This document shows, piece after piece, positions 11,280 to 63,909 of a stretch of 64,000 nucleotides of DNA. Origin of the DNA: Eledone cirrhosa (Eukaryota). The stretch is from the NCBI GenBank assembly GCA_964016885.1, contig OZ024755.1, positions 18,166,001 to 18,230,000 of the forward strand, read 5' to 3'. Within the stretch, counting starts at the first letter, position 1. The number at the start of each line of letters is the position of its first letter. The notes under the pieces were generated by a model. The model had not been told where the DNA came from, did not search any database, and saw only the letters and a list, made by a program, of their open reading frames with translations. The translations under genes were made by a program, and so were the position numbers.

Positions 11280-11489
11280 CGTTTCTGAATTTGTTTAGCA
11301 AGATTCTTTATCTGAAAACGTGTGTTGAAACCGATATTGTTATGCTTTGGGAGGGTCATGTTGCCAATAAGAAACACACGCACCAGTTGCTTTCACTCCA
11401 ATTTATTATAAATTAAATTTATAAATTTAAGAATTTATAAATTTCCGGTTGGTTGGTTGGTTCCACAACCGGACGGTTGTTCATATATT

Positions 11490-11532
11490 GTCAAAGTTCT
11501 TTCGTCACACATTCTGTGACCTCTTCAGTGAC
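11490..11532 (-). ncRNA. Hammerhead ribozyme motif, family D (left arm)
   Basis: Reverse complement of 11609-11651. Confidence 0.7.
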
Positions 11533-11608
11533 TGGGATTCTTTTCTTTGTTCAAGATGGCGTAGGACAGAACAAAGGAGAGGCACAAAAACAAAGAAAAG
11601 AATCTCCA

Positions 11609-11651
11609 GTCACTGAAGAGGTCACAGAATGTGTGACGAAAGAACTTTGAC
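11609..11651 (+). ncRNA. Hammerhead ribozyme motif, family D (right arm)
   Basis: gtca-CTGAAGA-g-GTCAC agaatgt GTGAC-GAAA-gaac-TT-tgac; stem I gtca/tgac. Confidence 0.7.
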
Positions 11652-11954
11652 AATATATGAACAACCGTCCGGTTGTGGAACCAAACAACCAACCGGAAAT
11701 TTATAAATTCTTAAATTTATAAAAAATTGGAGTGAAAGCAACTGGTGCGTCTGTTTCTTGTTGGCAACATGACCCTCCCAAAGCATAACAATATATATAT
11801 ATATATATACATACATGTGTGTGTATATATGTGTATACATCTAATAGGTTGGATACAAAGTCCTGTTGGATTTTGGACAAAGAAAGGAAAAGATGTTTAT
11901 TTGGTTATGATGGATATATTCAATCAAGATAATATTGTTCATAATTTTTAATAA

Positions 11955-12510
11955 CACTAGCAGAAAAACCACCCATGCTAGCATGTGTAGTGTACATATT
12001 GATATTATACGCAAATATCTATGCATATAGATATGATATGTCAAATAAAATCGTAATTGACAATATGCACAGAAATTGAACGAAGTCTGTGTTACACTCT
12101 CTTCTGTAATCAGTAAAGTAATTCATGATACATTAAAAAAAAACGATATTATATATAAACTGCATATAAGATAAACTAAAATTTTATGAAAATGAAAAAG
12201 GAGAAAATTAGCGACGGAAATATAAACAATTTATAATTATGCAAATATATGAACGTTTATATAAGTGATGTGATGAGTGTTATGATATAACGGACGCTAA
12301 CCGAAAGTGTTGACATTTGAAAATTTTAAAGAAGTGAATCTTAAAATAAGCAATACTTTATATATAAGAATATTTATGTTTAATGAAGGGCTATGAAATT
12401 TAGTAGATAAATTACAAAATATTCATTCATTATTTATTCAAAGTAATCCAACTTATTTTACTAACAGGATAAAAAAATATAAAACAGGACTTGCACTCCT
12501 CCCTTTATTA
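11955..12510. mobile_element. Interspersed repeat beginning ACTAGCAGAAAA (Helentron/MITE-like); second copy at 42966-43410
   Basis: Long near-identical sequence at both loci; terminal hairpin CTAGCAGAAAA...TTTTCTGCTAG in the second copy. Confidence 0.6.
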
Positions 12511-12518
12511 TATTATAG

Positions 12519-13157
12519 ACTAGCAGTGGTACCCGCCGTTGTACGGGATAGGGTATTTTGGAACGCAGGCCGCCAACAGACCTAATCGTGGAAAAACTGC
12601 ATGCCTGGACAATATGTAAAGAAAATAAACTGAATACTCTGGTGGCTGGATAATCTTTAAGATTTTCCTCGATGAAGCAGGAAAAATGCAGGTTTTCACC
12701 TAATGCGGGCCCTAGGTGATCAAGAAAATGAATTTTTTTTATGTCCATAATATGCCTTGAAATTTCGGGAAAATCGGTTAGACGTAACGCCTCGAAAAGA
12801 GCCCTAAAAAGCTGAAAAAAAATGAAAATCCAACTTTTTTATGGCCTAAAAAAGTTGGATTTTCTTTACTCATGGTATGAAGGAGAGACTGACTAATACA
12901 TAGTTACAATTTCAAGGAAATCGGTCTGACATAATGCCTCAAAAAAACCCCTAAAAATCTGAAAAAACGCAGTTTTTCACCTAATGCGGGCCCTAGGGGA
13001 TCAAAAAGTTGAATTTTTTATGTGCATAACACTCCCTGAAATATAAGTAATACACATGTAAAGTTTGACAAAAAATCGGTTGAGTACTTCTCAAGTTTTA
13101 GGGATTCAAACTCAGACACACACACAGACAGACATCCTCAGTTTTATATATATAGAT
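12519..13157 (+). mobile_element. Non-autonomous Helentron-associated (HINE/DINE-1-like) element
   Basis: ACTAG...CCCG..CGGG subterminal stem at one end, (CAGA/CACA) tract + TTTTATATATATAGAT at the other; internal duplication. Confidence 0.6.
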
Positions 13158-13564
13158 AATCCTACCTGGCTGGCAAATTGTTAATCCAAATTGTTAATCC
13201 AAATTGTTAATCCAAATGGTTAATCCAAATTGTTAATCCCTCTAGTATAATCCCCTCTTCAGGTTGCAAAGCAAAGATGGATTCAATGGCCATTTTTATC
13301 TCTTCTCAATTGGTAAACTGTTTTTCGTTTAGAAAAACCTGCTGCAATGATCTGAAAATAAAATAATCTGAGGATGAGTTAAAATTTCTATATTAAATGT
13401 AAGAATGTTGTTGTGTAATTCGGGCAATATGTGGTCGTGCATTCTAAGTTTAATAATTCTATCAATTGCTCTAACCCCCTAAATTACTTTATCTGCTCTC
13501 TTCTTAGCTAGTAAAATATCTACATCATCATTTCCTACTCAGAAGACTTTATATCTATACTGTT

Positions 13565-13796
13565 TGTCTGTGAAGAGTCTGGCTAATGTATCACTCCATT
13601 TCATCCCCTGCACACAGCATATGTCTGTGAAGAGTCTGGCTAATGTATCACTCCATTTCATCCCCTGCACACAGCATATGTCTGTGAAGAGTCTGGCTGA
13701 CGTATCACTCCATTTCATCCCCTGCACACAGCATATGTCTGTGAAGAGTCTGGCTGATGTATCACTCCATTTCATCCCCTGCACATAGCATATGTC
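13565..13796 (-). repeat. 4 x 57-bp tandem repeat derived from a LINE AP-endonuclease N-terminus
   Basis: Units translate DICCVQGMKWSDT.ARLFT, preceded by ELFDQRGVD; resembles the RTE VDI.CVQE.RW motif. Confidence 0.7.
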
Positions 13797-14045
13797 AACT
13801 CCTCTTTGATCAAACAGTTCCACGGTTTCCCTCATCTACCAATAGTTGGTGGATTGTTCATTGATAATATTATAACAGAAGGACTGTAAAAAAATCAGAG
13901 AAATACTCTCTCCATCTCTTCATAATGTTCTCTGGGTCTTTATAGAAAACTGTACCATCCTTCCATTGCACAGGGTCAAAGAAAGATGATAGAGGACCAA
14001 ATCATTGTCATAATATGGCATAAAATGTTTCAATGTTCTTACTTT

Positions 14046-61360: not shown

Positions 61361-61760
61361 AATAATTGTTTCTACTTTAGGCACAAGGCCAGCAATTACT
61401 CAGTACATTACTGGTTCTTTATTTTATCGACCCCGTAAGGATGAAAGGCAAAGTTAACCTCAGTGGGATTTGCACTCAGACCATAAAGGGCCGAAACTCT
61501 TTGCTGCAAAGCATGGCGTCAGACCCTCTACGGTAGAGGGTCTGACGCCATGCTTTGCAGCAAAGAGTTTCGGCCCTTTATGCTGCCAGCTCTAATAATT
61601 GTTTCTATTTTTGGCACAAGGCCAGCAATTACCCAGTGTATTACTGGTACTTTATTTTATCGACCCCGTAAGGATGAAAGGCAAAGTTAACCTCGACGGG
61701 ATTTGAACTCAGACCGTAAAGGGACGTAACTATGCTACCGATACTGCCAAATCGCAGCCC
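61361..61760 (-). mobile_element. Two tandem second-family SINEs separated by a 50-bp fold-back
   Basis: Copies start at 61361 and 61593; perfect hairpin at 61482-61582. Confidence 0.8.
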
Positions 61761-62058
61761 TAATGATTTCTAATTTAGGTACAAGGGAAGGGGGAAATTC
61801 GATTAAATCGATCCCTTCATAGAAATATCACCCCCACCCTCTCTATCTATCTATCTATCTATTTATCTATCTATGCAGCCAGCTGCTCATTACTATTATA
61901 TATATATCTATTACTATTATATATATATATGAGTAATAATAATAAATTTGAAGACTAAAATCCAAAGAGGGCTCGATAAGGATAAATATATATCAAATAT
62001 ATAAGAACTGTAGAGTTTCAGAAGATCCCGTTAAGGGTGAAAGCAGCGATTCTTTGCT

Positions 62059-62848
62059 TAATGTTATTACTCTGGGGTCTATCCTCATCCGAGTGCTCAA
62101 GCTACAGACCGATTATGCATATACGTTAGCTTGGCCGTATTCTAAAGCTTCGTCAATGCTGTACTAAAATTTATATTTACTCCTAGAATTAACGATTAAC
62201 TGATTAATTTAATTAGATGATTCTATTGATTGATTAATTGTTTAAGTTTGTTTGATAACTTCTAGTCGAGTGCTTTATTCGGTTTGTCTAAAGGGATTCA
62301 TTCCTTTATCTCAAATTAGAATTCACCGCCTAAGCGGGGGTCACCTCCCTTGGAGTAAACCACGTGTCTGTGGCGACATTTAAAGTTACAACATACCCGC
62401 TCCGGCTAAGAACGAAAGACTTGCTGAAGAAGTAAACCCTATGTTCTGTCGTCAAAAACCATTATATTGCAGACTCCTGCAATAGGAATTTGTCGGTCTT
62501 GGATTTACAGAAACTTAGCGCTGATGTTGGATGTGATATTGTGATCTATATTGTTGATATACGATGTAAGTTATATATTTTACACTCGACCTCACCGCTA
62601 TGTCCGGGGCCTCACCGCTATGTCCGGGTCAGTATAAAACCTTTTCCTGTGTCCTGTATTTTCGTTGCTCTAGTAGTGCGGCTGGACTGCCGACCGCTAT
62701 ATCTGATTTGCTAAGCTGTCTGAACGTAATGTTATTACTCTGGGGTCTTTCCTCATCCGAGTGCTCAAACTACAGACCGATTATGCATCTACGTTAGCTT
62801 GGCCGCCATATTCTAAAGCTTCGTCAATGCTGTACTAAAATTTATATA
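62059..62848 (+). repeat. ~120-bp direct repeats (62059-62177, 62727-62848) flanking ~550 bp
   Basis: TAATGTTATTACTCTGGGGTCT...GCTGTACTAAAATTTATAT present twice. Confidence 0.85.
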
Positions 62849-63159
62849 TATTATATATATATATATATATATATCGTAGTCCACCTACACCTGGCGTGTT
62901 TTTATTGTTTAGACACATATGCATGTATATATGCATGTACATATGCATATATATATATGTGTACAAGATGATATACCCAAGTCACTACAAAGGTTTTCGA
63001 AATGCCAGACTCCTGCGGCATGTATATGGTGGTAGGTGAGTGTGCATGTGTGTGTGTGTGTGTATGAGAGTGTAGTGACCTTATAAGATGTGTGTGTGTG
63101 TTGTTTAAATTGAACGTCATTCTTGGTTGTTTGTCGTAACAATTCAATATGTGTGTGTG

Positions 63160-63209
<50 letters not shown>

Positions 63210-63470
63210 AGTGGAAGCTTAGTAAAATCGAAGCTTTGGCTGTGGCCAAGCAAAGTCGACCTACAATAAGGAATGAGTAGCAAAGCACTCAATAAGGGTA
63301 GGTCCTTAGAGTAATAATATACGTTTAAATAGCTTGACAAATTGAACATTGCGGTAAGCAAAACCCAACCACACAATACCAAAGTAACGAAAGAACTAAC
63401 TATATATATATATATATATATTATAAAATAACAGGAGGCTGGACTGGTGTAATTCCTTAAAAGGTTTATT

Positions 63471-63528
63471 ATACTATGATCATTTCAATGACCGGGTTCA
63501 GTATGAATCCGGTGACATCATCAGGTAT
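63471..63528 (-). ncRNA. Hammerhead ribozyme motif, family E (left arm of fold-back 63420-63774)
   Basis: Reverse complement of 63666-63723 apart from one loop base. Confidence 0.78.
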
Positions 63529-63665
63529 TCGAAATATAACAAAGGAATATAATAGACAAAATCCATGGTGCTGATAATCAGAGACATGAGGGCGGCCGAC
63601 CATTTCGCAGCTACCAGCCCGGTCAACCGACCTCAAGTCTATTATATTCCTTTGTTATATTTCGA

Positions 63666-63723
63666 ATACCTGATGATGTCACCGGATTTATACTGAACCC
63701 GGTCATTGAAATGATCATAGTAT
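63666..63723 (+). ncRNA. Hammerhead ribozyme motif, family E (right arm)
   Basis: atac-CTGATGA-tgtcaccgg...ccggtcatt-GAAA-TGATCA-TA-gtat; palindromic stem III. Confidence 0.78.
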
Positions 63724-63909
63724 AATAAACTTTTTAAGGAATTACACCAGTCCAGCCTCCTGTTATTTTATAATAATTAACTCCGTACTAGTACCACCAA
63801 CAACACAAACGAAGACGGATGAGTTGCATTACGTCGACTGCTCTCCATAATATTACATCGAGGTTGACCATACGGAATGACCAGTTCTATCTAGTGGTGA
63901 ACCAACAAA

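What the first reader, a model, noticed from the sequence alone, without database searches (positions are those of the whole stretch)
11334..63774. Five fold-back cassettes with a ribozyme on each strand, all in the same divergent polarity
Seen: 11334-11794, 24172-24672, 24752-25197, 55096-55410 and 63420-63774 (plus the shorter ~55505-55797) each have a minus-strand hammerhead in the left arm and a plus-strand one in the right arm, with 3' ends pointing outward, usually into (TA)n. The reverse arrangement was not seen. Established: Penelope insertions often have an inverted, truncated pLTR at the 5' end. Inference: these are ORF-less insertion products of that mechanism. Transcription from either side would give a rod-like dsRNA in which the ribozyme is paired with its own antisense. 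That would be a self-inhibiting switch and a candidate ADAR or Dicer substrate.
Basis: partly seen in the sequence, partly recalled or inferred. Interest (0 to 1): 0.8.

Follow-up and report, generated by a model that had tools for sequence, protein, structure and literature searches.

The report
Two-primer Penelope retroelement fold-back stubs
These mirror-image stretches are real, short head-to-head pairs of the end piece of Penelope-type jumping genes in an octopod genome, a layout already in print; the outward-facing ribozymes are likely a by-product of how the element is copied in, not a built-in switch.

Summary
Confirmed: six fold-back cassettes, hammerhead cores on both strands, 3' ends outward. 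They belong to five repeat families with 1,796-16,475 exact motif hits genome-wide. Four sit downstream of RT/GIY-YIG remnants; family D (63420) does not yet.

Polarity is 83 divergent to 4 convergent. Spacing runs from 21 bp to 4.9 kb, junctions mostly differ, and the same layout occurs with 0, 1 or 2 ribozymes. Arms are closer to each other than to other copies.

Inverted pLTR, one-sided tail, (TA)n targets and opposite-strand hammerhead pairs are all published (PMC3846280, PMC8557442, PMC4209133). This scan also reported the layout elsewhere in this genome.

Likely mechanism: both target strands prime reverse transcription, one at each RT start site, and the two cDNAs join; outward polarity follows automatically. 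New lead: 21 of 80 family-A arms end in one 27-nt stretch between NRF1-like and YY1-like motifs, suggesting run-off at the transcription start. Ribozyme sequestration is predicted by folding; a switch function and editing are unshown.

The parts
11277..11794 (.). Cassette c1, family A (Neptune/Nematis-type EN motifs). Tailed arm 11277-11551 (-), tailless arm 11552-11794 (+); the tailless arm reaches 37 nt further 5' and starts at the YY1-like motif
11500..11528 (-). c1 left hammerhead core (CUGAAGA to GAAA)
11613..11641 (+). c1 right hammerhead core
24086..24672 (.). Cassette c2, family B (Hydra-type EN motifs). Tail about 24086-24171 (-); both arms reach about -154 from the motif, the left one with an internal deletion of about 33 nt; 16-nt filler at the turn
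24227..24273 (-). c2 left hammerhead core
24576..24619 (+). c2 right hammerhead core
24695..25197 (.). Cassette c3, family A. Tail 24695-24751 (-); arms 100% complementary over 214 nt; tailless arm 21 nt longer 5'; both arms share a deletion at helix I / the cleavage site
24927..24955 (-). c3 left hammerhead core
24994..25022 (+). c3 right hammerhead core
55096..55475 (.). Cassette c4, family C (Hydra-type EN motifs). Tail about 55411-55475 (+); arms end at the same point; a duplicated piece lies at the turn
55142..55178 (-). c4 left hammerhead core
55327..55363 (+). c4 right hammerhead core
55493..55902 (.). Cassette c6, family E. Tail about 55810-55902 (+); tailless arm reaches further 5'
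55548..55588 (-). c6 left hammerhead core
55715..55754 (+). c6 right hammerhead core
63420..63911 (.). Cassette c5, family D (no linked ORF found). Tail about 63775-63911 (+); tailless arm about 80 nt longer 5'
63483..63524 (-). c5 left hammerhead core
63670..63711 (+). c5 right hammerhead core

Best explanation
Each cassette is two short, 5'-truncated copies of the end of a Penelope-like retroelement joined head to head in a TA repeat, with the tail on one arm only, likely made in one insertion when both nicked target strands prime reverse transcription at the element's two start sites and the two cDNAs are joined. SHOWN: the family link to RT/GIY-YIG (A, B, C, E), two fixed 3' ends, the one-sided tail, arms from the same source, junctions that mostly differ, and a continuum of sizes. 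INFERRED: (1) the endonuclease nicks both strands of (TA)n; (2) one 3'-OH primes at the tail end and the other at the upstream site; (3) both cDNAs run through the uncleaved hammerhead; (4) their 3' ends join bluntly or by a few nt of homology. Outward polarity is then automatic, because each cDNA starts at the RNA's 3' side attached to the target. INFERRED for family A: many ORF-less stubs arise when priming uses the start sites in the first codons near the 5' end of the mRNA, so the cDNA runs off at the transcription start after about 250-310 nt. PREDICTED: in a read-through transcript the antisense arm is made first and locks the ribozyme in a duplex; this is a side effect.
For: RT and GIY-YIG remnants lie upstream in the same sense for A, B, C, E. 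The ORF starts inside the arm and the tail is codons 10-28, as for the 12-to-22-aa tail in PMC3846280. The tail is on exactly one arm in 82 of 92 divergent pairs (50% expected, p 1.5e-15) and in 48 of 50 family-A pairs anchored away from the ribozyme. Arm-to-arm difference is below arm-to-other-copy difference (medians A 0.6% vs 6.3%, B 2.2 vs 5.4, D 1.6 vs 3.1, E 1.7 vs 7.0; C uninformative), with no trend against spacing up to 6 kb (Spearman -0.07, p 0.52). In 12 of 35 clean family-A pairs the tailless arm reaches further 5' (9 by more than 150 nt), so neither arm contains the other. In vitro, an anole PLE nicks and extends both strands, starts at two sites that bracket the tail, is predicted to be a dimer, and uses uncleaved RNA (PMC11167929). 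21 of 80 family-A arms (18 insertions) end within 27 nt, at about 4-14 times the rate of neighbouring bins; the stretch is weakly structured and lies between NRF1-like and YY1-like motifs (motif labels recalled; positions as in human, PMC11269187).
Against: 22 of 35 clean family-A pairs (13 tail-longer, 9 equal) fit a fold-back copy of one cDNA equally well. Later deletion across the turn could create non-nested arms; c2 shows such a deletion, and it was misclassified by the script. Near-equal pairs also occur away from the hot spot (L189, L193, L314), so paired stops at the hot spot are not independent proof of a transcription start. 10 of 92 pairs have two tails or none. A non-simple target-site duplication was seen in 1 of 92, against a shuffled mean of 0.28. 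No ORF was linked to family D. The hot spot was measured cleanly only in family A. The in vitro paper does not report that each strand prefers a different site; it saw no difference in start site between strands.
Confidence: 0.62

Rival explanations
1. Same elements, but the mirror arm is made by self-priming (fold-back) of one cDNA or antisense template; the endonuclease then trims one end at the upstream site, and later deletions make arms unequal.
For: Self-priming is proposed in PMC3846280, and EN-mediated resolution of the tail in PMC8557442. It explains identical private variants (c3 deletion), perfect palindromes at the turn and the 9 equal plus 13 tail-longer pairs of 35. c2 has a deletion near the turn.
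Against: 12 of 35 pairs are non-nested, some by hundreds of nt with clean joins. Tail-only inverted pieces sit on longer tailless arms (L138, L140, L141, L145, L155, L163). c3 is non-nested although its arms are still identical.
Confidence: 0.25
2. The two-ribozyme palindrome is a selected RNA device (self-inhibiting switch, or deliberate ADAR/Dicer substrate).
For: The core is predicted fully paired, the antisense arm is always transcribed first, and short fold-backs are numerous (about 2,900 by extrapolation).
Against: The same layout occurs with 0, 1 or 2 ribozymes and at every size. Polarity needs no selection. c3's cleavage region is damaged in both arms. Monomeric minimal hammerheads are reported inactive (PMC4209133). 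Conservation of single loci across species was not tested.
Confidence: 0.06
3. The palindrome is itself the mobile unit (a non-autonomous fold-back or retrozyme-like element copied whole).
For: Turn points cluster in several families, and a few pairs share extents.
Against: Turn sequences differ even at the hot spot. At most two of 62 short pairs share the same extents. Spacing is continuous into ORF-bearing copies. Single arms end at the same hot spot.
Confidence: 0.04
4. Amplification or assembly chimeras.
For: No listed contig spans a whole cassette; native long reads were not seen.
Against: Fixed family ends, a tail on one side in 82 of 92, arms diverged by substitutions and indels, and polarity 83:4. 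One 230-nt contig from a second sample crosses the inner turn of c2.
Confidence: 0.03

Closest known systems
EN+ Penelope-like element insertions with inverted 5'-truncated pLTR and one-sided tail (Adineta Pen2a, PMC3846280; Fig. 2 text of PMC8557442)
   Same: Head-to-head inverted pLTR, tail at one end that encodes the next ORF residues, palindromes at the turn, (TA)n targets, tail-to-tail rare
   Different: Here the body is truncated away altogether, tails are 57-137 nt rather than 30-40, and copy numbers are in the thousands, which allows counts
Minimal type I hammerheads of metazoan PLE pLTRs (PMC4209133)
   Same: Short palindromic helix III, long helix II, location in the pLTR. The paper states that dual motifs occur about 100-700 bp apart on opposite strands in Schistosoma, and that most are single motifs probably from truncated PLEs
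   Different: Other families and host; helix II is longer in B-E; the paper gives no polarity count; cleavage was not tested here
Anole Poseidon PAc in vitro (PMC11167929)
   Same: Two RT start sites inside the ORF start bracket the tail; both strands nicked and extended; uncleaved RNA used
   Different: The paper does not tie one site to each end of a single insertion and does not explain inversion or ORF-less stubs
Hydra clade and Neptune/Nematis clades (PMC8557442)
   Same: B and C ENs have the CxCX5C linker, no CCHH cysteine pair, a later CxxC, and TA targets (Hydra-like). [quoted passage not shown]
   Different: Motif reading only; no RT tree was built; D is unplaced
Non-LTR retrozymes (bioRxiv 10.64898/2026.07.22.740005)
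   Same: ORF-less, type I hammerhead, related to PLE pLTRs
   Different: Retrozymes are head-to-tail tandems; these are single head-to-head pairs with a different turn each time

Membership tests
EN+ Penelope-like elements | RT plus C-terminal GIY-YIG endonuclease upstream of the pLTR, same sense | tested here: met
   Family A: RVT_1 E 7e-4 and GIY-YIG E 1.4e-4, both below Pfam's curated cut-offs; the EN ends about 200 nt before the hammerhead in most of 30 loci. B, C, E linked by tblastn in several loci (E in one, L182)
EN+ Penelope-like elements | Same link for family D (cassette c5) | tested here: inconclusive
   No linked ORF in 30+30 short and 23 longer loci; shared upstream sequence of at least 2.1 kb appears non-coding; the one candidate EN belongs to another family
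EN+ Penelope-like elements | pLTR overlaps the ORF start; optional tail at one end | tested here: met
   ORF overlap shown for A only; tail on one arm in 82 of 92 pairs over all five families
EN+ Penelope-like elements | Frequent 5' truncation with an adjacent inverted copy | tested here: met
   Spacing continuum 21 bp to 4.9 kb, 83 divergent to 4 convergent
EN+ Penelope-like elements | Target-site duplication | tested here: inconclusive
   Masked by (TA)n; 1 of 92 has a non-simple 15-nt duplication, shuffled mean 0.28
EN+ Penelope-like elements | RT phylogeny with PLEs and telomerase | not tested
   No tree built; no named PLE references were held
Hydra clade | CxCX5C linker, no CCHH, CxxC/CxH near the end, (TA)n targets | tested here: met
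   B and C EN fragments
Hydra clade | RWK and DKT motifs, clade placement | not tested
   Not examined systematically
Minimal type I hammerhead ribozyme | Conserved core with helices I and II and short palindromic helix III | tested here: met
   c4 does not take the fold as a monomer MFE; c3 helix I is shortened; no Rfam hit
Minimal type I hammerhead ribozyme | Self-cleavage | not testable with these tools
   Needs an assay
Non-LTR retrozyme | Head-to-tail tandem monomers, each with a hammerhead | tested here: not met
   6 tandem against 83 divergent neighbours within 5 kb; 1 tandem at <=500 bp

The most novel reading that the evidence does not exclude
Octopod genomes hold a thousands-fold natural record of the Penelope insertion step. 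A dimeric enzyme uses one RT start site per target strand on one template. The abundant ORF-less stubs come from priming at the ORF-start copy of those sites near the mRNA 5' end and running off at the promoter. The resulting thousands of near-perfect 100-250-bp hairpins are then a major class of ADAR substrate in a heavily editing lineage.
Probability: 0.3. Interest if true: 0.55.

Novelty: new member of a known kind. Interest (0 to 1): 0.27.

Why it matters
The layout is published, so it is no new class. The counts bear on an open question, how Penelope-like elements make their inverted ends and one-sided tail, which PMC8557442 and PMC11167929 leave unresolved. One tail per pair, same-source arms, non-nested arms and a sharp 5'-end hot spot give testable predictions for the existing in vitro system. 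The hairpins could also matter for cephalopod RNA editing if they lie in transcribed introns or UTRs; that is untested.

Tried and rejected
Rfam: no hammerhead match at E<=1; the miRNA hits only reflect hairpins.

Polarity was not counted genome-wide. It rests on the first 100 listed places per motif, all at the start of contig C1.

Family D: search for an ORF failed; the candidate EN belongs to a sixth family with its own hammerhead.

Target-site duplications: not above chance as a count.

5'-end distributions for B-E by self-comparison were confounded by inverted partners and not used. The tail-anchored classification had split partner matches; its totals were not used. In one search, low-score partner calls were AT-rich noise, so the printed Fisher test was not used. 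In one search, c2 was miscalled 'short-end longer', and the 26:12:19 split is approximate.

A hairpin stop as the cause of the family-A hot spot: the stretch folds weakly in two copies.

Gene conversion as the source of arm similarity: no decay with spacing; weakened, not excluded.

Sequencing runs: no RNA holder listed. Reads were laid on c2 only; c1 and c3-c6 are untested by reads. RAD-seq runs did not cover the turn.

NCBIfam gave only generic RT matches.

Literature searches for a twin-priming account of PLE inversion, octopus PLE hammerheads and cephalopod editing in PLE fold-backs showed no paper on these points in the listings. The library lacks most subscription papers, and no supplements were read; the HHR supplements of PMC8557442 and PMC4209133 may list related families.
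Full report
OBSERVATION. The five inverted repeats and the shorter sixth are in the sequence. A motif scan found hammerhead cores on the minus strand of each left arm and the plus strand of each right arm for c1-c4 and c6; c5 was read by eye and folded. All are type I, with a short palindromic or near-palindromic helix III. Rfam has no hammerhead hit at E<=1. The host is an octopod cephalopod: the PID-domain ORF at 19945-20871 is 57-62% identical to named Octopus and Argonauta proteins. 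The genome is 3.0 Gb.

FAMILIES. The six cassettes belong to five families: A (c1, c3), B (c2), C (c4), D (c5), E (c6). Exact 22-23-nt motifs occur 16,475, 1,796, 4,065, 5,065 and 6,424 times, with 0 for the reversed controls. Longer copies of A run upstream into a GIY-YIG endonuclease and an RT (Pfam scores below the curated cut-offs). B and C do likewise in several loci and E in one. By the motifs given in PMC8557442, A looks Neptune/Nematis-like and B and C Hydra-like; no tree was built. No ORF could be tied to D, although D shares every structural trait below.

POLARITY. Among the first 100 listed places of each motif (all on contig C1), neighbours within 5 kb are 83 divergent, 4 convergent and 6 tandem; at <=500 bp, 54, 2 and 1. 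A family-A motif outside the ribozyme gives 28, 2 and 2. Divergent spacing is continuous from 21 bp to 4.9 kb, and long pairs carry EN fragments in both arms, so the cassettes are the short end of one distribution. I read two of the four convergent cases. One is two separate insertions meeting at a TA tract; the other is a tail-to-tail palindrome with identical arms. Scaling the <=500-bp rate to the genome counts gives about 2,900 short fold-backs with the exact motif in both arms. This is my extrapolation from one chromosome end, and some of them are cut inside the ribozyme.

THE MISSED ASYMMETRY. Every family has two fixed 3' ends, 57-137 nt apart in the window copies, both usually abutting (TA)n. 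In 82 of 92 divergent pairs (93 found, one duplicate dropped; 76 of 86 without the window's six) exactly one arm has the long end, against 50% expected. In family A, anchored away from the ribozyme, it is 48 of 50; that sample is mixed and holds some duplicates. In A the ORF begins inside the arm and the tail is codons 10-28. This is the PLE tail of PMC3846280, and it matches the two RT start sites inside the ORF start in PMC11167929.

SAME SOURCE, REBUILT EACH TIME. The arms of one cassette differ less from each other than from other copies (medians A 0.6% vs 6.3%, B 2.2 vs 5.4, D 1.6 vs 3.1, E 1.7 vs 7.0; C too short to tell). There is no trend with spacing. c3 has a deletion in both arms that is absent from 100 parsed of 103 other arms. 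Each window cassette resolves into two pieces of the family end cut at different 5' points. Across 62 short pairs no more than two share the same extents, and 35 have near-blunt joins or overlaps of up to 12 nt. In 35 clean family-A pairs the tailed arm is longer in 13, the tailless arm in 12, they are equal in 9, and 1 has two tails; 18 hold two ribozymes, 16 one and 1 none. The window itself has the layout with one ribozyme (48184-48351) and with none (22069-22127, 54630-54737).

MECHANISM. Target-primed reverse transcription attaches the RNA's 3' side to the target. Two cDNAs primed from the two strands must therefore point outward, and no selection is needed (established logic of TPRT, applied here by inference). 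One site per end, same-source arms and non-nested arms favour two primers. PMC11167929 shows both strands nicked and extended, two start sites, a predicted dimer and uncleaved RNA as template, but it saw no strand difference in start site. The published rival is self-priming (PMC3846280) with endonuclease resolution of the tail (PMC8557442). It fits the 22 nested or equal pairs, and it needs later deletions for the other 12; c2 shows that such deletions happen. I put two-primer synthesis at 0.62 and fold-back at 0.25; a mixture is possible.

WHY SO MANY ARE ORF-LESS. In family A, 21 of 80 parsed arms (18 insertions) end within -24 to +2 of an AA(A/G)ATGGCG motif. The bin rate is 76 ends per 100 nt per 100 arms at risk, against 0-20 in the other bins. 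Arms without a partner end there too, and the stretch folds weakly. Upstream lie GCGCATGCGC-like and CCGGATGT motifs. From recall these are YY1-, NRF1- and ETS-like; in human cells NRF1 sites lie upstream and YY1 sites just downstream of the start (PMC11269187, passages). I infer a transcription start there. Because the RT start sites are in the first codons, every mRNA has a copy near its 5' end, and priming there would give a 250-310-nt ORF-less product. Reading by hand and keeping only partners of 75 bits or more: none of 10 hot-spot insertions has a partner passing the hot spot, and none of 15 long-arm insertions has a partner stopping in it. This agrees, but near-equal arms also occur elsewhere, so it is not independent proof. 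The right arm of c1 starts at this point; c3 starts downstream of it. No RNA data test the idea.

RNA CONSEQUENCES. Folding of each whole cassette gives a rod with an unbroken helix of 52-215 bp and a fully paired catalytic core in all 12 strand folds. In this polarity the antisense arm is transcribed first from either side, so sequestration is predicted. A switch would need an active off-to-on change, and none is evident. PMC4209133 reports no monomer cleavage and low dimer cleavage for a minimal motif, and PMC11167929 reports that a PLE hammerhead needs the protein. ADAR and Dicer action were not tested.

READS. Laid on c2 only: no listed contig spans the cassette. One 230-nt contig of depth 2.5 from a second sample crosses the inner turn.

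WHAT IS KNOWN. PMC4209133 (parts 1-2 of 4 read: results and discussion) already mentions dual minimal hammerheads about 100-700 bp apart on opposite strands. PMC3846280 (parts 1-4 of 5, the whole main text) describes the inverted pLTR, the tail and head-to-head as the most frequent arrangement. PMC8557442 (passages and section 11) adds (TA)n targets and the tail at one end. PMC11167929 (parts 1-2 of 4: main text and start of methods). The retrozyme preprint (part 1 of 5) concerns tandems. No supplements were read. Earlier notes of this scan reached the same filing at other places in this genome; these are unchecked and not counted as support. Several blame RNA hairpins for the turn, which does not fit the family-A hot spot.

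VERDICT. Real, and an instance of a published architecture in families for which my searches found no description. The switch reading is unsupported. The counts on tail, nesting and 5' ends are a modest, testable lead on the insertion mechanism. Interest 0.27.

Noticed in passing
window 24370-24588, run X4: One 230-nt contig (depth 2.5, run kind not on record, second sample) crosses c2's turn with 8 differences; the 4 listed are all A>G on the plus strand (24500, 24513, 24519, 24548) and are absent from run X1. G at these places is found in 0/29, 0/45, 13/45 and 2/52 held family copies. A weak hint of editing only; an allele, another copy or error is not excluded.
   Followed up: partly
window 19945-20871 (+): Uninterrupted PID_2-domain ORF (FAM43-like, label recalled) with octopod homologues; c2 and c3 lie 3.2-4.3 kb downstream.
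   Followed up: partly
window 40076-41350 (-): 425-residue open frame with ankyrin repeats.
   Followed up: no
tails of families B, C, D, E and F (L334): A near-palindromic GAGYRCT box sits in the tails of five families but not A; a candidate recognition site for the element's protein.
   Followed up: no
window 48184-48351, 22069-22127, 54630-54737, 57043-57215: Further fold-backs of the same polarity with one ribozyme, none, or a ribozyme broken at the turn.
   Followed up: partly
window 2448, 10965, 17508, 21892, 25514, 39231, 57334 and about 17711-17843: Single-arm hammerheads of these and other families.
   Followed up: no
L079/L080 (G000:C1:3570815-3571088): Tail-to-tail palindrome across a TA tract with identical arms; a later inverted duplication or an assembly artefact.
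   Followed up: partly
L096/L097 and L100/L101: A cassette outside pure TA with a 15-nt flanking duplication; the locus occurs twice on C1.
   Followed up: partly
L178, L235, L238: 4.7-6.3-kb family-C palindromes with endonuclease fragments in both arms.
   Followed up: partly
L333-L352: A sixth PLE family (Hydra-like EN by similarity) with its own compact hammerhead and an NRF1-like motif about 60 nt upstream.
   Followed up: no
window 23304-23414, 42014-42730, 15075-16050: Other long inverted repeats of unrelated repeat families; no hammerhead core found by the scan.
   Followed up: no
window 57493-57692: A 200-N assembly gap begins at the centre of a palindrome like the one at 23304.
   Followed up: no
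   Followed up: no
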